Part shown: positions 23-57,610 of the stretch, in pieces
How positions within the stretch are numbered: the stretch's first letter is position 1
Layout: every line of letters starts with the position of its first letter
NCBI GenBank assembly: GCA_014687725.1
Contig: GCA_014687725.1_4094.1
Strand: one strand, 5' to 3'
Origin: a phage
Length of the DNA: 64,000 nucleotides
Notes under the pieces: model-generated
What the model was told of the DNA's origin: nothing
Database searches by the model: none
What the model saw: only the letters and a program-made list of their open reading frames with translations
Translations under genes and position numbers: made by a program

Positions 23-224
<202 letters not shown>

Positions 225-228
225 ATTA

Positions 229-300
<72 letters not shown>

Positions 301-321
301 CATAAACAATGAGAGGTATAA

Positions 322-1691: not shown

Positions 1692-1792
<101 letters not shown>

Positions 1793-1804
1793 TATCTTAC
1801 TTCT

Positions 1805-1894
<90 letters not shown>

Positions 1895-1900
1895 TACACT

Positions 1901-3169: not shown

Positions 3170-3182
3170 AATCGTTTAACCC

Positions 3183-3238
3183 GATAGCTTCTAGTCAGTA
3201 CTGATTCCTCCTTATGTATAGAAGCTATCACTTTTTTA
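3183..3238 (+). terminator. rho-independent terminator-like hairpin (11-bp stem GATAGCTTCTA/TAGAAGCTATC) plus T-run
   Basis: Inverted repeat 3183-3193/3219-3229 followed by TTTTTT; long 25-nt loop contains CAGTACTG. Confidence 0.5.
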
Positions 3239-3325
3239 CGTATAATGATATTACCCTCAAATTCATTATATTCGTTACCCTCTAACAGTATCTTTTTATT
3301 CCTCTTGGATGCTGTAATTTAGAAG

Positions 3326-3385
3326 TTGACTTTTTAACTTCTACTGTGTTATACTTAAGGCTGATTCGATGAATCGGCCTTTTTT
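3326..3385 (+). promoter_or_regulatory. promoter (TTGACT-N18-TATACT) followed by leader hairpin plus T-run
   Basis: TTGACT 3326-3331, TATACT 3350-3355, hairpin GGCTGATTC-GAT-GAATCGGCC 3359-3379, T-run 3380-3385. Confidence 0.45.
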
Positions 3386-3403
3386 CTTATATAGGTGAAT
3401 GCA

Positions 3404-13165: not shown

Positions 13166-14131
13166 GTGAAAAAGCTTGATTTAAATACAATTGCCGAAGA
13201 AGTTCTGGATGAATGTTTTGCTAATGAAGAAGTCAACACACTAGAAGCCTTAGATTTCGTTGAAGATAAAGATGAAAATGAAGGTAAAGTACAAAGCAGT
13301 TTCAAATATAATATTACACTTAAGCGACCACCAAATGTTTCCAATGAAGATCTAATTCGTGATATTCAAGCTGGTATCAATGTAAAGAAAAACACTGAAC
13401 TGTTAGTTCGTTACAATTATGGACTTATTATTGATGTAGCAAGTAAATGTACTTGTTATATCCCATTTGAAGATAAGATTTCATATGGTGTTGAGGGGTT
13501 CATGAGAGCACTAAAAACCTTTGATCTTAATAAGAATGTGAAGTTCATTACCTATGCTTCTTCTAGTATTTACATGACAGTTTATAACGAAAGTTCTGAC
13601 GCTAACTATATGGTACACTTCCCACGTTATATGAGTGTTCATAAGATCAAAGTAAAAAGATTCTGCCAGGAATATATGCGTAAACATGGTGTTCGCCCAA
13701 CTCCTGAAATAATCTCAGAGGGTACTGGGATTGAGATTCAGCATGTTAATAACTGTTTGTTATTTCAAAGCGAATACACTTCTCTGGATGCACCATTAGA
13801 CGGTGTTACCGATGGTACACTAGGTGACATTATTCATTCACCTGCTTCTGATTTTAACCTCAATGTTGATAGTATTCGTGCACCTTTACGTTATGCTATC
13901 AATGAACTGACTAACGAATTGAGTACTAAAGAACGTGAGATTATCCAGCGTGTTCATGGTCTAGGTGAATATGAACCTGAAACGCTTCGTGAGATTGCTG
14001 ATAATGGTTTTGTTGATGATAATGGAAAATATGTTAAATCCCGTTCATCAATACATCGAAAGTACAGTGAAGCTATGCAAAAGCTTAAGAAGCTAGTACT
14101 TGCAAAAGGGTACGAATACGAAGATTTCTAA
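13166..14131 (+). CDS. sigma-70 family RNA polymerase sigma factor-like protein (321 aa)
   Basis: Region 2-like GVEGFMRALKTFDLNKNVKFITYASSSIYMTV, region 3-like KHGVRPTPEIISEGTGIEIQHV, region 4-like EREIIQRVHGLGEYEPETLREIADNG; GTG start with GGAG RBS. Confidence 0.65.
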   Translation: MKKLDLNTIAEEVLDECFANEEVNTLEALDFVEDKDENEGKVQSSFKYNITLKRPPNVSNEDLIRDIQAGINVKKNTELLVRYNYGLIIDVASKCTCYIPFEDKISYGVEGFMRALKTFDLNKNVKFITYASSSIYMTVYNESSDANYMVHFPRYMSVHKIKVKRFCQEYMRKHGVRPTPEIISEGTGIEIQHVNNCLLFQSEYTSLDAPLDGVTDGTLGDIIHSPASDFNLNVDSIRAPLRYAINELTNELSTKEREIIQRVHGLGEYEPETLREIADNGFVDDNGKYVKSRSSIHRKYSEAMQKLKKLVLAKGYEYEDF

Positions 14132-14139
14132 AGAAAAAA

Positions 14140-15219: not shown

Positions 15220-16008
15220 ATGAGCACTATCGATGAACTGATTCAACGGAATTCAAAATATTACCAACCATCAGAAATTGTGGATAACATTACTAAATCT
15301 GAGTTTGGACCGAACACACGCAAACTCATTCATGTAATGTCACGTGATGGCTTTAAATGTGATTGTTGTGGTGAATCAAATGTAGTATTCACTTTACACA
15401 AGCACAGTACTAAAGAACGTTATAAATTCAGACCTTATGTACTTAAAGGGAAACGCCTTGTACGCATGACGTTAGACCATAATGTACTGGACTGTCTTCA
15501 GGGCGGTAATGATAAAGAGAACATGACTGCACTGTGTGAAGATTGTAACGCATTACGCCAGCATAAGTTTGCTGAATACAGTGAGTTTAAACACTGGTAT
15601 CATAACGCGGATCGTTCAATCGAGCCTGACGTCAACTACTGCTTCATTGAGTACATTAAGAATGCCAAAGATACATACATTCTTAAATCAATGTCACCTA
15701 TTACCGTGTTTCCTGAGAACCTATTCACTACATTAAAGAATAGTTTTATTGTAGGTGATATTGATGCATTCAAGTATTTTGACAAAGGTGCAAAACATTT
15801 TGAAATTCAATGTCTTAGTACTGCACTATGTGAACTCATTAAAATTTACATAAAAGAGTATTTGGGTATTGACAATGTACGTGTACCAGAGTATACTTTT
15901 TCTATTGAATTCGATTGTGAATCAATCAAAGAGTTTGGAATTCTTTTCAATAAACAAATAGAACTTGCAATTCAACACGAAATCAAGTACTATACTACTA
16001 ACATTTAA
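15220..16008 (+). CDS. HNH-family endonuclease (homing-endonuclease-like), 262 aa
   Basis: Cys pairs CDCCG and CEDCN flanking DHNVLDCLQGGNDKENMTALC (HNH beta-beta-alpha-metal motif). Confidence 0.7.
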   Translation: MSTIDELIQRNSKYYQPSEIVDNITKSEFGPNTRKLIHVMSRDGFKCDCCGESNVVFTLHKHSTKERYKFRPYVLKGKRLVRMTLDHNVLDCLQGGNDKENMTALCEDCNALRQHKFAEYSEFKHWYHNADRSIEPDVNYCFIEYIKNAKDTYILKSMSPITVFPENLFTTLKNSFIVGDIDAFKYFDKGAKHFEIQCLSTALCELIKIYIKEYLGIDNVRVPEYTFSIEFDCESIKEFGILFNKQIELAIQHEIKYYTTNI

Positions 16009-16023
16009 TCAGAGGAAATTATC

Positions 16024-16206
16024 ATGCAAATTATCATTCTTATTGTTGGCATCATGCTGGGTGTTTACGGTCACTCCTGGATGAACGAGAAGTTTCCTAA
16101 TACGCGTCCTGAGTATTGCAGTTCTAATGTATTCCAGAATGGTGAGAAACCAAAGGAAAGCATTGGTAAAAAGCTGGATAAAGTACTTGATGTGATCAAT
16201 GAATAA
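16024..16206 (+). CDS. hypothetical small membrane protein (60 aa)
   Basis: N-terminal hydrophobic helix. Confidence 0.4.
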   Translation: MQIIILIVGIMLGVYGHSWMNEKFPNTRPEYCSSNVFQNGEKPKESIGKKLDKVLDVINE

Positions 16207-16417
16207 GGGCCATAAAATGTTTAAACCGAATTCCAATGTTGGAAAGAAAGTTCAATTACTTGAGGATGTATCCACTCTGAGTGGGATTTTCCCAAGAGGT
16301 CACATCATGACTATTATTGCCGAAACATCCCGTGGTTGGGACTTGGAAGATGCTGATGGTAATCGCATCCTTGAGGCTGGCTTCTATGGTCATCGTGAAT
16401 ATAAAATTATCGATTAA
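16199..16417 (+). CDS. hypothetical protein (72 aa)
   Basis: ORF in cluster. Confidence 0.45.
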   Translation: MNKGHKMFKPNSNVGKKVQLLEDVSTLSGIFPRGHIMTIIAETSRGWDLEDADGNRILEAGFYGHREYKIID

Positions 16418-16514
16418 GGATATAAAATGATGTTAGAGGCTATCGTTGGTATTGTTAGTTTTAGTCATCTGTGTTGCTTGCTTTGGGTATATGATGATTT
16501 TTGATGATTAATAC

Positions 16515-16542
16515 TTGACAGAAGATATCAGTACTGTATAAT
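16515..16542 (+). promoter_or_regulatory. sigma70-type promoter TTGACA-N16-TATAAT with CAGTACTG in spacer
   Basis: TTGACA 16515-16520, TATAAT 16537-16542. Confidence 0.6.
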
Positions 16543-16572
16543 GTTTATATCAAACGAAATCCACTTTAACAA

Positions 16573-16866
16573 ATGATAGGAAATATTATGTCTTTTTCTA
16601 AAGAAGAACGTGACCTTATTAAAAAAGCAATTTGGTTTTATGCTAATGAAGGGAAGTGCGATGAAGAAAAAGCACGTGAACTGTGTAATATCCTTGAGAA
16701 GAAACAAGAACTGAAAGTGTATCGTATCCGTGATTTGGATGAAGGGGATCGTATTGTCCTAGCTGAAACAAAAGAAGAAGCAGAACAAATCTTCACTGAT
16801 AAAAACGAAAATCCACATTGGATGGAAGAAGTCTGTGATGTTAAAAAAGGTACTTATATCGATTGA
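16573..16866 (+). CDS. hypothetical protein (97 aa; alternative start 16588)
   Basis: ORF downstream of promoter. Confidence 0.5.
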   Translation: MIGNIMSFSKEERDLIKKAIWFYANEGKCDEEKARELCNILEKKQELKVYRIRDLDEGDRIVLAETKEEAEQIFTDKNENPHWMEEVCDVKKGTYID

Positions 16867-16962
16867 CAGTACTGAATAATAGCAGTATAATGTTTATATC
16901 AAAGGGAATGCAGTGAAAGGAAAGACAGCATAATCGTACTCGTCACTGCGTTCCCGCCCTTT
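16863..16962 (+). promoter_or_regulatory. promoter TTGACA-N17-TATAAT plus long leader stem-loop followed by U-tract (attenuator-like)
   Basis: TTGACA 16863-16868, TATAAT 16886-16891; 13-bp stem GGGAATGCAGTGA/TCACTGCGTTCCC 16904-16955 then GCCCTTTT. Confidence 0.5.
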
Positions 16963-16984
16963 TAAATTAAATGAGGAATTAACT

Positions 16985-17293
16985 ATGTTTCAAACTAACA
17001 CTCAAGGTTTTGTAATCATCGATTTGAATCAAAACAGCGGTCATTGGATGAAACCTACTGACGCATGTATGCAGTTTGATTTCTTAGGTTACAAAATTAG
17101 TGTAAGTACTGGTGCTTCTGTACTGAGAGGTGGTTGTATCGTTGAACATCTGGTAACTGATCCAGAAGGTCGTGAGTATGAAATCGCAGGTTCAGTACAA
17201 GATGCCATTATGTTTGTATGTCAGCGTGAAATGAATGGTTCGAATTCAAATGCACTGACTCATGCTCTTTCTCAAGAAGTGGAGGTTCGTTAA
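16985..17293 (+). CDS. hypothetical protein (102 aa)
   Basis: GAGG RBS upstream. Confidence 0.55.
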   Translation: MFQTNTQGFVIIDLNQNSGHWMKPTDACMQFDFLGYKISVSTGASVLRGGCIVEHLVTDPEGREYEIAGSVQDAIMFVCQREMNGSNSNALTHALSQEVEVR

Positions 17294-17538
17294 TGAAATA
17301 CATTGTAGCAGTACTCGTCGCATTTCTACTCACTGCATGTGATGCTTCTACCAAAGAACGTACAAGTGATTTTGTTCTACCTGCTGAATTAAAAGAAGCA
17401 GGGTGTAAGATTTATCGTATGCAACAAGATGGTGCTGGTGCGACTTTATACACTGTGTACTGTCCTAATGCAAATACAAGTACTGGATACACTAGCGGTA
17501 AAACACGAATCAACACTTCCGTAATTCATGGAGAATAA
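17293..17538 (+). CDS. putative lipoprotein (81 aa)
   Basis: N-terminus MKYIVAVLVAFLLTAC with lipobox-like LTAC. Confidence 0.55.
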   Translation: MKYIVAVLVAFLLTACDASTKERTSDFVLPAELKEAGCKIYRMQQDGAGATLYTVYCPNANTSTGYTSGKTRINTSVIHGE

Positions 17539-17540
17539 CA

Positions 17541-17909
17541 ATGAGCCTTGATACAACACGTGCAGCAGATTTATTAACTCGTCTGAATGATGAAGAATAT
17601 CTTGCTGAGATAAAGTACAAGCTTGACAAACTTGTTCGAAGTGCTGAAGTAATTGAAGTTGAAGGTCACTTACCGATGGATCAATACCATAGGTTCAAGG
17701 AAGATATGGTTTATTATCCTAATGAAATTTGGATTGAGTGGCAACATTGGACTAACAAAACTCTTCGCATTGAAGGGTATTGTGTGAAGTATGAAAGTTC
17801 ACCTGGTGATGTTACAAAAACTCTATCAATTTGGTGTACAAAAACAAATGAACTCGTTGAGGTGAATTTGAATTATATGAATGGATTCCGTTGGGGTGAT
17901 GTTAAATGA
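17541..17909 (+). CDS. hypothetical protein (122 aa)
   Basis: ORF in cluster. Confidence 0.55.
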   Translation: MSLDTTRAADLLTRLNDEEYLAEIKYKLDKLVRSAEVIEVEGHLPMDQYHRFKEDMVYYPNEIWIEWQHWTNKTLRIEGYCVKYESSPGDVTKTLSIWCTKTNELVEVNLNYMNGFRWGDVK

Positions 17910-18181
17910 TTAAAAAACTCTTGACTGGAATCATTGTGTGCAGTACAATGTTTCTTACAGCATGTAATGATGACGGCAGGTTTAGTGCAAAAGACTTAGT
18001 TCGTCAGGATTGTACATTCACAGGTAAGTCTTTTATTAACGAGTATGAAATATGTACACAATCAGGTCGTATCTGTGGTGGTTGGGAAAAACGTCAGGAG
18101 CGATTGTATGTATATGAATGCCCTGGACATCACAACAAAGTATTAAGCACACACAAACTTGTTTATGATAAGGTTGAATAA
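17906..18181 (+). CDS. putative lipoprotein (91 aa)
   Basis: N-terminus MIKKLLTGIIVCSTMFLTAC with lipobox-like FLTAC. Confidence 0.55.
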   Translation: MIKKLLTGIIVCSTMFLTACNDDGRFSAKDLVRQDCTFTGKSFINEYEICTQSGRICGGWEKRQERLYVYECPGHHNKVLSTHKLVYDKVE

Positions 18182-20611: not shown

Positions 20612-20844
20612 TACTAAGTTTTGTTGTTGCACTATTGTTTATGTTCTATCCTACACTAGTGGCATTAGCCACTAGACGAACGATGGTAGATCTCACTACT
20701 GTATTCTTGCTAAACGTGGCATTAGTACTGGTTTCTATTATCATTCCAGTGAGCTTTACAGTTATTGATATTATTTCGGTATTACTCTTCGTGTTAAGTT
20801 ATCTTATGCTTATTGAAGAAACAAATGTTGACAAACGTTCGTAG
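20602..20844 (+). CDS. hypothetical membrane protein (80 aa)
   Basis: Two hydrophobic helices. Confidence 0.45.
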   Translation: MYLVLSFVVALLFMFYPTLVALATRRTMVDLTTVFLLNVALVLVSIIIPVSFTVIDIISVLLFVLSYLMLIEETNVDKRS

Positions 20845-20855
20845 TACTGTATAAT
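20828..20855 (+). promoter_or_regulatory. sigma70-type promoter TTGACA-N16-TATAAT with AGTACTG in spacer
   Basis: TTGACA 20828-20833, TATAAT 20850-20855. Confidence 0.6.
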
Positions 20856-22412: not shown

Positions 22413-22604
22413 ATGTTGATTTATCAAGGTGATAATATTCGTGTTATGCAGCATCCCTACTTACAAATCTTTGATGTGCAGCAGTATATGGAAGGTGATG
22501 ACCCAAGAACCTATGGTCGTAAGTATGATTACTTCACTGTAAAGCAGTGTAACAATATTAACGAAGTACGACAATTAGTTCAAGAACTTCAAAACAAAGG
22601 TTGA
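22413..22604 (+). CDS. hypothetical protein (63 aa)
   Basis: AAGGA RBS before internal ATG; IYQGD motif shared with previous ORF. Confidence 0.4.
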   Translation: MLIYQGDNIRVMQHPYLQIFDVQQYMEGDDPRTYGRKYDYFTVKQCNNINEVRQLVQELQNKG

Positions 22605-22630
22605 CTTCGGTCAGCCTTTTTTGTTATAAT
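22599..22630 (+). terminator. terminator hairpin GGTTGAC-TTCG-GTCAGCC plus T-run; TTGACT in stem with TATAAT 18 nt downstream (terminator-promoter cassette)
   Basis: Hairpin 22599-22616, T-run 22617-22622, TATAAT 22625-22630; overlaps stop codon at 22602-22604. Confidence 0.7.
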
Positions 22631-31428: not shown

Positions 31429-31487
31429 TTGACAAACACATTCAGTACTGTATAATGCTTATCAAGGGGGATGAACTTCTCATCCCT
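31429..31487 (+). promoter_or_regulatory. promoter TTGACA-N16-TATAAT plus leader stem-loop (PeSL-like)
   Basis: TTGACA 31429-31434, TATAAT 31451-31456, hairpin GGGATGA-ACTTC-TCATCCC 31468-31486. Confidence 0.6.
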
Positions 31488-31504
31488 ACAATCGAGGAAC
31501 TACC

Positions 31505-32059
31505 ATGATTACTTTTAAGAAAACTGCTAACCACATCCATGAAATCTACATTAACGGTCATAAAGCTGGCCTTCTTCGTTTACTCGCCCATCATCCTAAT
31601 GCTACCGTATCTGATAATGAACCTAAAGATTGGCGTGTCTTTTTCTTTGGAAAGTACAGTGATTTTCAAGTATCAAACCTGAAGAACATTCGTTCAGTAT
31701 GCACGTTAACTGAAATTAAAGAAAAGTTAGCACAAGCCTTGAAAACTAATCCAGATGGTGTTCTTCCACCTGATAACTTTGTAGAGAAAGGTTATGCCTT
31801 AGCTCATTTCAAAGATGGTACTATTCAATCTATCAGTACTGAATATGAATATCATTGGACTGAGTACTTCACTTATGGTTCGAGTAATACATTGATGGAT
31901 TCACGTAGTAAATTGGAAGAAGTACTGACTCGTATGAATGAACGCGAGCGTCAGTTATATGACAAACCAGAAATGTGGAGTTCAACTTACATTGACCGTA
32001 TTGACTATGTTATTATGACTCCAATCTTTGACACTGCTTACTATGATTCTTTGAAATAA
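31505..32059 (+). CDS. hypothetical protein (184 aa)
   Basis: ORF downstream of promoter. Confidence 0.55.
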   Translation: MITFKKTANHIHEIYINGHKAGLLRLLAHHPNATVSDNEPKDWRVFFFGKYSDFQVSNLKNIRSVCTLTEIKEKLAQALKTNPDGVLPPDNFVEKGYALAHFKDGTIQSISTEYEYHWTEYFTYGSSNTLMDSRSKLEEVLTRMNERERQLYDKPEMWSSTYIDRIDYVIMTPIFDTAYYDSLK

Positions 32060-32898: not shown

Positions 32899-32933
32899 AA
32901 GGGTTGACTTCGGTCAGCCCTTTTTGCTATAAT
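32899..32933 (+). terminator. terminator-promoter cassette (GGGTTGAC-TTCG-GTCAGCCC, T5, GC-TATAAT)
   Basis: Hairpin 32901-32920, T-run 32921-32925, TATAAT 32928-32933. Confidence 0.75.
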
Positions 32934-34180: not shown

Positions 34181-34215
34181 AAGGGTTGACTTCGGTCAGC
34201 CCTTTTTGCTATAAT
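34181..34215 (+). terminator. terminator-promoter cassette
   Basis: Hairpin 34183-34202, T-run, TATAAT 34210-34215. Confidence 0.75.
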
Positions 34216-35901: not shown

Positions 35902-35936
35902 AAGGGTTGACTTCGGTCGGCCCTTTTTGCTATAAT
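35902..35936 (+). terminator. terminator-promoter cassette (variant GTCGGCCC arm)
   Basis: Hairpin 35904-35923, T-run, TATAAT 35931-35936. Confidence 0.7.
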
Positions 35937-57421: not shown

Positions 57422-57610
57422 ATGCATAAAGAATACTACACAAAATATTTCCCAATGTACCTCAGAACTAATCTATTAGATAAACCTCGCGGTATCAATG
57501 CACAAAATGATAAAGTGTATTTTACTATGTGCACTAAAGCATGTATACTAGATTTTGACAGCTATCATCGAGTACTGTATCATACCCTGTACCTAGCTTT
57601 CGTATTCTAA
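57422..57610 (+). CDS. small paralog array protein, 62 aa
   Basis: MHKEYYTKYF ... LYLAFVF; internal ATG of track ORF 57377-57610. Confidence 0.55.
   Translation: MHKEYYTKYFPMYLRTNLLDKPRGINAQNDKVYFTMCTKACILDFDSYHRVLYHTLYLAFVF

What the first reader, a model, noticed from the sequence alone, without database searches (positions are those of the whole stretch)
16863..16984. Long leader stem-loop with U-tract upstream of the gene at 16985
Downstream of a consensus promoter lies a 13-bp stem (GGGAATGCAGTGA / TCACTGCGTTCCC, 16904-16955) with a 26-nt loop, followed by GCCCTTTT and then the RBS. This looks like a transcriptional attenuator or a stability or processing element controlling the downstream operon.
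Basis: seen in the sequence. Interest (0 to 1): 0.4.

Follow-up and report, generated by a model that had tools for sequence, protein, structure and literature searches.

The report
tRNA-derived hairpin in phage early leader
The stem-loop is real and evolutionarily maintained, but it is not a terminator: it is a stripped-down relative of tRNA-like RNA modules that giant Rak2-type phages place between strong early promoters and the first gene, and what it does is unknown.

Summary
A consensus sigma-70 promoter (16863-16891) is followed by a 13-bp stem (16904-16916 / 16943-16955) with a 26-nt loop.

The window matches an Asteriusvirus jumbo coliphage (phAPEC6 type). In metagenomic relatives whose downstream gene is only 80% and 66% identical in DNA:
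- The outer 8 stem pairs are rewritten by compensatory changes. All 65 cells pair, and 6 pairs change on both sides.
- The inner 5 bp plus the whole loop (36 nt) are identical.

G-U pairs place the structure on the + strand RNA.

The "U-tract" does not behave like a terminator tail. It starts 4 nt after the stem and is mutated or deleted in relatives. It belongs to an AU-rich ribosome-binding module that is also conserved where no hairpin abuts it. The terminator score is -66, against +21 to +30 for canonical terminators in the same window.

The hairpin core is homologous (24/27) to the enlarged anticodon arm of RaK2 pseudo-tRNA gt006, which sits in the same promoter-proximal position. Orthologous leaders in other genera carry tRNA-like elements.

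Best reading: a tRNA-derived leader RNA module that acts after transcription (processing, stability or a small RNA). The mechanism is inferred, not shown.

The parts
16863..16891 (+). Early-type sigma-70 promoter: TTGACA, 17 nt, TATAAT. The -35 overlaps the stop codon of the upstream ORF.
   Evidence: It is a 12/12 consensus match. A twin copy lies at 16515-16542 and shares TATAATGTTTATATCAAA. In 9 relatives, similarity starts exactly at the -10.
16892..16903 (+). Initial transcribed sequence GTTTATATCAAA. The transcription start is predicted near 16896-16900, which would leave about 5-6 unpaired nt before the stem.
   Evidence: The sequence is shared with promoter 16515 and with RaK2 leaders: GTTTATATCAAG before gt006 and GTTTACAATCAAG before gt007. 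The start site is inferred, not mapped.
16904..16911 (+). Outer 5' strand of the stem (GGGAATGC), acceptor-stem-like. The sequence is free to change but the pairing is kept.
   Evidence: It reads AGCGATGC in L023 and GATGGTAT in L034, with matching changes in the 3' strand.
16912..16947 (+). Invariant 36-nt core: inner stem AGTGA/TCACT plus the 26-nt loop AAGGAAAGACAGCATAATCGTACTCG.
   Evidence: It is 36/36 identical in L023 and L034, although their downstream ORF DNA is 80% and 66% identical. It is invariant in 12 Asteriusvirus genomes. Window 16918-16944 matches RaK2 pseudo-tRNA gt006 at 24/27: score 39 against 13.3 +/- 2.2 in shuffles, and 19.2 bits with the covariance model.
16948..16955 (+). 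Outer 3' strand of the stem (GCGTTCCC).
   Evidence: It covaries with 16904-16911. Within Asteriusvirus the only changes are three C-to-T substitutions, each giving a G-U pair.
16956..16959 (+). C-rich tail GCCC, which resembles a tRNA discriminator + CC and is hypervariable.
   Evidence: It reads ACCC, GTAC or AACC in close relatives, ACCC in L034 and in the Hallingskeid tRNA-like element, and CC in L023. Eight of the 12 columns in 16953-16964 vary, against 2 of 60 in 16893-16952.
16960..16984 (+). AU-rich block TTTTAAATTAAAT plus Shine-Dalgarno GAGGA (16973-16977). This is the ribosome-binding module of the downstream gene, not a terminator tail.
   Evidence: The block is conserved in L023, L034, the type B leaders and the RaK2-type leaders regardless of what precedes it.
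16985..17293 (+). Downstream 102-aa early ORFan (PHROG 26720, function unknown). It is the first gene of a run of small ORFs.
   Evidence: The AlphaFold model has pLDDT 83 and finds no PDB fold match. Orthologues occur in Klebsiella, Erwinia and Xanthomonas jumbo phages and in metagenomes.
16515..16866 (+). Context: the twin promoter (16515-16542) and a 97-aa ORF (16573-16866). Together they form a cassette that is present or absent among relatives, bounded by the duplicated promoter.

Best explanation
The element is a functional RNA hairpin in the 5' leader of an early transcript. It is a reduced member of a family of tRNA-like leader modules that Rak2-group jumbo phages place between a strong early promoter and the ribosome-binding site of the first gene.

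Its outer 7-8 base pairs, followed by R-CCC, behave like an acceptor stem: only the pairing is selected. Its inner 5 bp and 26-nt loop derive from the enlarged anticodon arm of a tRNA-like element (RaK2 gt006 type) and are selected for sequence. The D and T arms are gone, so the acceptor-like and anticodon-like stems stack into one 13-bp helix.

It most likely acts after transcription. It could be a processing or stability determinant: recognition by tRNA-maturation-type or other structure-specific RNases would define the mRNA 5' end and could release a small hairpin RNA of about 55 nt. It could also be a sequence-specific binding site displayed in the loop. It does not act as an intrinsic terminator.

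Shown here: the structure, the strand, selection on pairing, invariance of the core, homology to gt006, and positional equivalence with tRNA-like elements. Inferred: transcription from the adjacent promoter, and any processing or trans function.
For: - Structure and strand: + strand z = -4.3 against -2.0 for the minus strand. Five independent G-U pairs all fall on the + strand.
- Covariation: 13 pairs, 65/65 cells paired, and 6 pairs changed on both sides. Slid controls pair in 28-57% of cells, and 0 of 500 shuffles reach the observed covariation score.
- Core invariance: 36/36 nt at 80% and 66% ORF DNA identity, while the outer arms are 25-62% identical.
- Homology to the RaK2_gt006 arm: 24/27 identical, 0 of 2000 shuffles as good, 19.2 bits with the covariance model. 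gt006 is annotated as a pseudo tRNA, folds like a cloverleaf, and follows the same promoter and initial transcribed sequence.
- Orthologous leaders hold tRNA-shaped elements. Hallingskeid scores 37.1 bits against Rfam tRNA, RaK2 gt007 30.4 bits, and L024 35.4 bits. L036 also has one.
- These elements are mutually related (z = 15.6 and 4.2). A 13-bp, large-loop type B hairpin (L026-L029) is related to the Hallingskeid element (z = 4.8).
- The module is portable. In RaK2 it precedes ORF254, whose orthologue in the window (16217-16417, 75% identical) lacks it.
Against: - There is no transcript data for any phage of this group, so the start site, processing and small-RNA release are all unverified.
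- Rfam tRNA and ARAGORN do not recognise the hairpin, nor gt006 itself.
- The R-CC tail that RNase P-type recognition would use is not conserved: GTAC in ph0011, AACC in UE-S1, CCTT in L023.
- The stem is 13 bp rather than 12, and there is no T-loop motif.
- Among close Asteriusvirus genomes, the conserved block extends into the first 36 nt of the ORF. Within that genus, conservation could therefore reflect recent recombination rather than selection.
- Covariation rests on only three divergent lineages.
- One metagenomic variant (L035) lacks the outer 3' arm, so the long stem is not indispensable everywhere, or that contig carries a defective copy.
Confidence: 0.55

Rival explanations
1. Leaky intrinsic terminator or attenuator. 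The hairpin plus the downstream T-run would stop a fraction of transcripts from the adjacent promoter and from upstream read-through, setting the dose of the downstream operon.
For: A stable GC-closed stem is followed within 4 nt by TTTT. In L023 the spacer is only 2 nt, before TTTTAATTTT. PeSL stem-loops in T4-type phages do terminate (PMC2839356). A long-loop hairpin followed by a T-run and a -10 exists at 3183-3246. Tail variation could tune read-through.
Against: The terminator score is -66 (-13 with the most generous structure), against +21 to +30 for canonical terminators at 14133 and 7179. The loop is 26 nt. The terminator scan does not call it. The T-run is mutated, shortened or deleted in relatives. 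In type B leaders it is 9-10 nt from the stem, and in RaK2 it is present without an adjacent stem. An invariant 26-nt loop is not needed for termination. No alternative fold or sensor was found.
Confidence: 0.1
2. Operator for a trans-acting factor. The invariant loop, held out by a stem of fixed length, would be bound by a phage or host protein (or a partner RNA) that controls translation or decay of the early mRNA. On this reading the tRNA ancestry is incidental.
For: The 36-nt core is absolutely conserved, whereas the stem only needs to pair. The hairpin lies 17 nt upstream of the Shine-Dalgarno sequence. The same core sits in front of an unrelated gene in RaK2, as expected for a generic regulatory module.
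Against: No candidate partner was identified. The loop shows no significant complementarity to 16S, 23S or 5S rRNA or to the rest of the window. The downstream protein has no recognisable RNA-binding fold. Sister lineages use quite different inserts, or none, for the same gene.
Confidence: 0.2
3. Non-functional relic. The hairpin would be what remains of a decayed phage tRNA gene, kept only because it lies in a recombining promoter cassette.
For: RaK2 annotators call the related elements pseudo-tRNAs. The gt007 copy in Muenster carries stem mismatches and T-loop changes. Inserts are gained, lost and replaced between close relatives. L035 has a partial deletion.
Against: Six compensatory double substitutions with 100% pairing, and a 36-nt block identical at 66% flanking identity (0.656^36 is about 3e-7), are not expected for neutral sequence.
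Confidence: 0.08
4. DNA-level element. The inverted repeat would serve as a protein-binding operator, cruciform or recombination site in the promoter-proximal region.
For: It lies at about +6 to +58 of a strong promoter. Promoter cassettes here are recombination junctions.
Against: The arms covary rather than being conserved in sequence. The G-U pairs (one in phAPEC6, one in the BF17 type, three in ph0011, one in L034) would be A-C mismatches in DNA, leaving 10/13 complementarity in ph0011. The recombination junction maps to the promoter, not to the hairpin.
Confidence: 0.04

Closest known systems
RaK2_gt006 / gt007, annotated as pseudo 'tRNA-OTHER' in Klebsiella phage vB_KleM-RaK2 (JQ513383), and similar tRNA-like leader elements in Erwinia phage Hallingskeid and in metagenomic relatives
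   Same: They occupy the same slot: a consensus early promoter, GTTTA..ATCAAG, a structured RNA, an AU-rich Shine-Dalgarno region, then a small early ORF. The closing stem is long (about 13 bp in gt006 and gt007). The hairpin core is 24/27 identical to the gt006 enlarged anticodon arm. A C-rich tail (ACCC) follows the closing stem in Hallingskeid.
   Different: Those elements keep a cloverleaf-like four-way fold with a T arm (and a D-like arm). The window element has only one helix and one loop, 52 nt in total. In RaK2, gt006 precedes a different gene.
PeSL cassettes (promoter-early stem-loops) of T4-type phages RB49/phi1 (Arbiol et al. 2010, PMC2839356)
   Same: Both are intergenic composites: upstream stop codon in AT-rich DNA, a strong sigma-70-like early promoter, a stem-loop with a GGG...CCC motif, a Shine-Dalgarno sequence and an ORFan. 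The duplicated promoters bound a gene cassette that is present or absent among close relatives. Canonical PeSL-like units (AAAGGGTTGACTTCGGTCAGCCCTTTTTGCTATAAT) occur elsewhere in the window.
   Different: PeSL stem-loops are short GC hairpins that terminate transcription and sit at or before the start site. This stem-loop is fully transcribed from its own promoter, has a 26-nt sequence-constrained loop, scores as a non-terminator and has tRNA-like ancestry.
Intrinsic terminators and transcription attenuators
   Same: A stable hairpin in a leader with T residues downstream.
   Different: The spacer is 4 nt, only 4 T follow, the loop is 26 nt, the T-run is not conserved, and there is no antiterminator alternative.
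tRNA-like structures and acceptor/T-stem minihelices used as RNase P or CCA-enzyme substrates in non-tRNA transcripts. Examples from my own knowledge, not tested here: McClain/Altman model substrates, phage P1 C4 RNA, mascRNA from MALAT1.
   Same: A continuous helix of 12-13 bp, G1-C pairing, and R-CC after the helix in phAPEC6, the BF17 type and L034. It sits a few nucleotides from a predicted 5' end.
   Different: There is no T-loop. The R-CC is not conserved in all relatives. Cleavage has not been demonstrated.
5'-terminal stabiliser hairpins (ompA type; from my own knowledge)
   Same: A promoter-proximal stable hairpin upstream of an accessible ribosome-binding site.
   Different: The predicted 5-6 unpaired nucleotides at the 5' end are more than such stabilisers usually tolerate. 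A stabiliser would not need an invariant loop.

Membership tests
Intrinsic terminator / attenuator | GC-rich stem followed within 0-2 nt by a U-rich tract of about 7-9 nt | tested here: not met
   The spacer GCCC is 4 nt and is followed by UUUU AAA. T-score 0.43, d-score -66. The terminator scan does not call it.
Intrinsic terminator / attenuator | Short loop (about 3-10 nt) | tested here: not met
   The loop is 26 nt.
Intrinsic terminator / attenuator | U-tract conserved among relatives that keep the hairpin | tested here: not met
   It reads TATT in UE-S1 and TTT in CMSTMSU, and is deleted in L035. The tail is the most variable part of the leader.
Intrinsic terminator / attenuator | Mutually exclusive antiterminator structure or sensor | tested here: inconclusive
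   The MFE equals the centroid and no competing fold is seen. No leader peptide with a conserved Shine-Dalgarno sequence was found. No exhaustive suboptimal-fold analysis was done.
tRNA (Rfam RF00005 / ARAGORN) | Cloverleaf with D, anticodon and T arms that scores above threshold | tested here: not met
   There is no tRNA hit at E <= 10 on 16850-17000. ARAGORN finds nothing even at relaxed thresholds.
Rak2-group tRNA-like leader modules (gt006 type) | Sequence homology to a member | tested here: met
   24/27 identity to the gt006 arm, 0 of 2000 shuffles as good, 19.2 bits with the covariance model.
Rak2-group tRNA-like leader modules (gt006 type) | Position between an early promoter (GTTTA..ATCAAG start region) and the AU-rich Shine-Dalgarno region of a small early ORF | tested here: met
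Rak2-group tRNA-like leader modules (gt006 type) | Four-way tRNA-like fold with a T arm | tested here: not met
   It has a single helix and a single loop, so it is a reduced derivative rather than a full member.
PeSL cassette (T4-type phages) | Strong sigma-70-like early promoter, stem-loop and Shine-Dalgarno sequence in an intergenic region of an ORFan-rich region | tested here: met
   definition taken from PMC2839356.
PeSL cassette (T4-type phages) | Cassette boundaries coincide with gene insertions or deletions between close relatives | tested here: met
   Gene 16573-16866 is absent in 9 relatives, with the junction at the duplicated promoter.
PeSL cassette (T4-type phages) | The stem-loop is an effective terminator | tested here: not met
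   By sequence criteria only. No experiment was possible.
RNase P minihelix-type substrate | A 12-bp acceptor/T-stem stack with 3' R-C-C, and cleavage 5' of position +1 | tested here: inconclusive
   The helix is 13 bp. GCCC or ACCC is present in phAPEC6, the BF17 type and L034, but GTAC, AACC and CCTT occur in ph0011, UE-S1 and L023. Cleavage cannot be tested with these tools.
5'-terminal stabiliser hairpin | Hairpin within about 0-4 nt of the RNA 5' end | not testable with these tools
   The start site is not mapped. It is predicted at 16896-16900, which leaves 4-8 unpaired nt.
Any Rfam 15 family | Score at or above the gathering threshold | tested here: not met

The most novel reading that the evidence does not exclude
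Rak2-group jumbo phages may express, from the first nucleotides of their strongest early transcripts, a family of tRNA-derived small RNAs whose anticodon loop is enlarged to 16-26 nt and is sequence-conserved. The phAPEC6 hairpin would be the minimal functional form (acceptor-like stem plus enlarged loop). After excision by tRNA-processing enzymes, it would act in trans, for example as a decoy or inhibitor for host tRNA-targeting defence nucleases or as a regulator of host or phage RNA. This would be a new class of phage non-coding RNA.
Probability: 0.2. Interest if true: 0.75.

Novelty: new variant of a known kind. Interest (0 to 1): 0.5.

Why it matters
Jumbo phages of the Rak2/121Q group are being developed for therapy, yet about 80% of their genes, and all of their RNA-level regulation, are unknown.

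This work makes three points:
- The promoter-proximal leader slot of early cassettes is occupied by fast-exchanging structured RNAs of tRNA ancestry.
- One of them has been pared down to a hairpin whose loop has stayed unchanged while the neighbouring gene diverged to 66% DNA identity.
- Elements annotated as pseudo-tRNAs, or not annotated at all, may therefore be functional.

It gives a concrete 36-nt target for mutagenesis and pull-down experiments. It also extends the PeSL picture of cassette shuffling from T4-type phages to jumbo phages.

Tried and rejected
- **Rfam.** Gathering and E-value scans of the window and of 16850-17000 gave only chance sub-threshold hits (DUF2815 RNA 15 bits, IhtA, D12-methyl).
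- **ARAGORN.** The standard run finds nothing here. Relaxed and mitochondrial settings gave no tRNA that coincides with the hairpin.
- **Other copies or a host origin.** The element is single-copy in each phage genome. There is no E. coli homologue; the only matches are a chance 20-nt identity in tail-fibre genes. The loop pattern is absent from GTDB genomes, and in IMG/VR it occurs only in 121Q. The two IMG/VR hits to a type B pattern were coding-region coincidences.
- **Direct similarity of the hairpin to the tRNA-like elements in the orthologous RaK2 and Hallingskeid leaders.** Not significant. The link came only through RaK2 gt006, in a neighbouring leader.
- **Loop complementarity.** Not better than shuffles against E. 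coli 16S/23S/5S rRNA and two tRNAs. No complement of 10 nt or more exists elsewhere in the window.
- **Embedded middle-type promoter (TGAAACG-type box).** No such motif class occurs in the window.
- **Small ORFs in the hairpin (ATG-CAG-TGA; GTG-AAA-GGA-AAG-ACA-GCA-TAA).** There is no conserved Shine-Dalgarno sequence and the start codons lie inside the stem. Rejected by inspection.
- **Pseudoknot between loop AAAGG and tail CCUUU.** Sterically impossible across a 13-bp helix with a 1-2-nt linker, and the tail is not conserved.
- **Function of the downstream protein.** PHROG family of unknown function, no Pfam hit, and a confident AlphaFold model with no PDB fold match.
- **Literature.** No transcript maps exist for Asteriusvirus or Alcyoneusvirus.

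Full report
**Source and context.** Window 16000-18000 is 100% identical to Escherichia phage vB_EcoM_phAPEC6, a 352-kb jumbo myovirus of genus Asteriusvirus in the Rak2/121Q/PBECO4 group. Another part of the window (1700-1900) is closer to PBECO4, so the source is mosaic relative to database records. The region is an early-type block of small + strand ORFans downstream of a phage sigma-70-family factor (13166-14131) and an HNH endonuclease (15220-16008). It contains many perfect sigma-70 consensus promoters. This matches what has been described for the related phage CBB (PMC5259590).

**The observation.** The 13 pairs include one U-G, which would be an A-C mismatch on the other strand. The + strand RNA folds at -26.8 kcal/mol (z = -4.3, 0 of 200 shuffles as stable), and the minus strand at -22 kcal/mol (z = -2.0). 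Uninterrupted stems of this quality occur 4 times on the + strand of the window, against 0.43 expected.

**Close relatives.** The 71-nt element is single-copy and is present in 36 E. coli and Salmonella Asteriusvirus genomes at 94-100% identity.
- Across 14 aligned leaders, the 5' arm and the loop never vary.
- The only changes in the 3' arm are three C-to-T substitutions, each turning G-C into G-U.
- Eight of the 12 columns at 16953-16964 (stem base, GCCC, T-run) vary, against 2 of 60 columns just upstream.
- All haplotypes still fold into the same 13-bp stem.
- The conserved block runs on into the first 36 nt of the ORF, and the flanks are mosaic. Conservation within this genus is therefore weak evidence on its own.

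**Distant relatives give the decisive data.** A profile search with the downstream 102-aa protein found 45 homologues, and I read the leaders of 12 of them.
- *Type A hairpin retained.* Two metagenomic contigs keep the same hairpin. In L023 the protein is 86% and the ORF DNA 80% identical; in L034 the figures are 61% and 66%. In both, the inner stem AGTGA/TCACT and the whole 26-nt loop are 36/36 identical to the window. The outer eight pairs are rewritten: GGGAATGC/GCGTTCCC becomes AGCGATGC/GCATCGCT in L023 and GATGGTAT/GTACCATC in L034.
- *Formal count.* On five distinct sequences, 65/65 cells pair and 6 of 13 pairs change on both sides. Slid controls pair in 28-57% of cells, and 0 of 500 shuffles reach the observed covariation score. 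The stem is therefore selected as a structure and the core as a sequence (0.656^36 is about 3e-7 under neutrality).
- *Deletion variant.* A 95%-identical variant (L035) has lost 14 nt, comprising the outer 3' arm and the T-run, but keeps the core.

**Why it is not a terminator.**
- The T-run starts 4 nt after the stem and has 4 T. With a 26-nt loop, the d'Aubenton-Carafa-type score is -66; I used this formula from memory. Canonical terminators in the same window (14133, 7179) score +21 to +30.
- The T-run is altered in UE-S1 and CMSTMSU and deleted in L035.
- The block TTTTAA(A)TT(T/A)AA + Shine-Dalgarno is conserved in RaK2-type leaders about 90 nt from the nearest tRNA-like stem. It is also conserved in type B leaders 9-10 nt from the stem. 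It belongs to the translation-initiation module.

**What occupies the same slot elsewhere.** Orthologues of the downstream gene have the same kind of promoter and Shine-Dalgarno region, but different inserts between them:
- Klebsiella phages (RaK2, Muenster, L019, L024, L025) carry two tRNA-like elements. The first is annotated as pseudo tRNA gt007 and scores 30-35 bits against Rfam tRNA.
- Erwinia phage Hallingskeid carries one tRNA-like element with a 16-nt anticodon loop (37.1 bits), followed by ACCC.
- A 324-kb metagenomic phage (L036) carries a homologue of the Hallingskeid element (z = 15.6).
- Four contigs (L026-L029) carry a different 13-bp stem, AGACGGGATGATA/TATCATCCCGTCT, with a 37-41-nt loop. 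Its outer 7 bp equal the Hallingskeid acceptor stem, and overall it is significantly similar to that element (z = 4.8). It too has a hypervariable C-rich tail.
- XaC1, L022 and L030 have short leaders with no insert.

**The link to tRNA ancestry for this hairpin.** Direct comparison with the elements in the orthologous leaders was not significant. A covariance model of the hairpin, however, hit RaK2 at L002 281-305. That position lies inside pseudo tRNA gt006, about 900 bp upstream, in the leader of ORF254.
- gt006 follows the promoter TTGACA-N17-TATAAT and the same start region GTTTATATCAAG.
- Hairpin positions 15-41 match gt006 at 24/27: score 39 against 13.3 +/- 2.2 in shuffles, 0 of 2000 as good.
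- gt006 folds with a 13-14-bp closing stem, a small D-like hairpin, the matching arm with a 19-nt loop, and a T arm ACAGG-TTGCATT-CCTGT.
- The window hairpin therefore corresponds to an acceptor-like closing stem fused to the enlarged anticodon arm of a gt006-type element, with the D and T arms missing.
- ORF254 is unrelated to the 102-aa protein. Its orthologue in the window (16217-16417, 75% identical) has neither the promoter nor the RNA element.
- gt006 itself is present only in RaK2 and one other Klebsiella phage genome. The RNA module therefore moves between leaders.
- That mobility fits the promoter-bounded presence/absence of gene 16573-16866 and PeSL-type shuffling (PMC2839356).

**Mechanism.** Shown here: a + strand RNA structure under selection, a sequence-constrained loop, tRNA-like ancestry, a promoter-proximal location, an accessible Shine-Dalgarno sequence, and failure of the terminator criteria. 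Inferred: the element acts after transcription.

My preferred model rests on the acceptor-like helix of 12-13 bp, the R-CCC tail in several lineages, and the positional equivalence with tRNA-shaped elements. In this model, tRNA-maturation-type or other structure-specific RNases process the leader. That would define the 5' end of the mRNA and possibly release a small hairpin RNA whose conserved loop has its own target.

The R-CC tail is not universally conserved and no T-loop is present, so this step is uncertain (about 0.3 on its own). A trans-factor operator is the main alternative. The two readings are not exclusive.

**Negative results.** No Rfam family matched. No tRNA call was made. There is no host homologue. 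The loop has no significant complementarity to rRNA or to the rest of the window. No middle-promoter motif was found. The downstream protein gave no informative family or fold. No published transcript maps exist for this phage group.

**Verdict.** The attenuator interpretation is not supported, and a processing, stability or small-RNA role is plausible but untested. The element is a new, reduced variant of a little-noticed family of tRNA-like leader modules in Rak2-group jumbo phages. Interest is moderate (0.5).

Noticed in passing
window 22596-22630, 32899-32933, 34181-34215, 35902-35936 (+): There are four near-identical terminator-in-promoter cassettes, AAAGGGTTGACTTCGGTCAGCCCTTTTTGCTATAAT. 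The 5' arm of the hairpin carries the -35, the T-run is the spacer, and TATAAT follows. They look like textbook PeSL-type units in a jumbo phage.
   Followed up: partly
window 16515-16903, and loci L007, L009, L012, L013, L016: Gene 16573-16866 (97 aa, PHROG 24324) is missing in 9 Asteriusvirus genomes. The junction lies exactly in the duplicated promoter sequence TATAATGTTTATATCAAA (16537-16554 and 16886-16903), which points to promoter-mediated cassette gain or loss.
   Followed up: yes
window 31429-31510 (+): A second early promoter has a similar start region and a leader hairpin: TATAATGCTTATCAAG GGGGATGA-ACTTC-TCATCCCT, an 8-bp stem with a 5-nt loop and no T-run, upstream of the Shine-Dalgarno sequence.
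   Followed up: partly
window 1744-1801 (+): An intergenic 12-bp stem AGTAAGATGACC/GGTTATCTTACT with a 34-nt loop ends 9 nt upstream of tRNA-Thr (1811-1884). It is another long-stem, large-loop hairpin, and it sits next to a tRNA gene.
   Followed up: partly
window 3170-3395 (+): This 225-nt non-coding stretch holds a stem GATAGCTTCTA/TAGAAGCTATC with a 25-nt loop containing GTCAGTACTGA, followed by ACTTTTTTAC and GTATAAT. A canonical terminator, GGCTGATTCGATGAATCGGCCTTTTTT, follows near 3358-3385.
   Followed up: no
window 16530-16536, 20843-20849, 31444-31450, 59423-59429, 57573-57579; clusters at 59559-59727, 60092-60185, 62170-62191: The palindromic motif CAGTACTG (often as CAGTACTGTATAAT, abutting the -10) recurs in early-type promoters and occurs in clusters. 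It may be a phage-specific promoter-proximal signal.
   Followed up: no
window 59400-62400, both strands: Strong promoters on both strands are followed by long stretches without obvious ORFs. Repeats are present: ACTCCCGCACCCTA downstream of the minus-strand promoters at 62335 and 60409, and inverted repeat I1 at 59837-59924. This may be a non-coding RNA or origin-like region.
   Followed up: no
L005 1382-1464; L036 about 597-680; L002 249-335 and 1141-1216; L006 about 75-150: tRNA-shaped leader elements with enlarged anticodon loops (11-19 nt) lie behind early promoters in the Erwinia, Klebsiella and metagenomic jumbo phages. ARAGORN calls none of them in L002-L006, and some are annotated as pseudo-tRNAs. 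The Hallingskeid and L036 copies differ by at least one compensatory acceptor-stem change, which suggests they are functional.
   Followed up: partly
window 16953-16964, and the equivalent tails in L026-L029: The few nucleotides immediately 3' of the closing stem are C-rich and hypervariable in both the type A and the type B hairpin lineages, in contrast with the invariant core. The reason is unexplained.
   Followed up: partly
window 1700-1900 versus 16000-18000: The window is 100% identical to PBECO4 and 98% to phAPEC6 at 1700-1900. At 16000-18000 it is 100% identical to phAPEC6 and 97.7% to PBECO4. The source genome is therefore mosaic relative to the database records.
   Followed up: no
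window 36-301 and 1811-1884 (+): Four tRNA genes (Ser-ACT as called by ARAGORN, Met, Asn, Thr) are embedded among early ORFs. The first two score lower (about 50 bits) and are 87-91 nt long.
   Followed up: no
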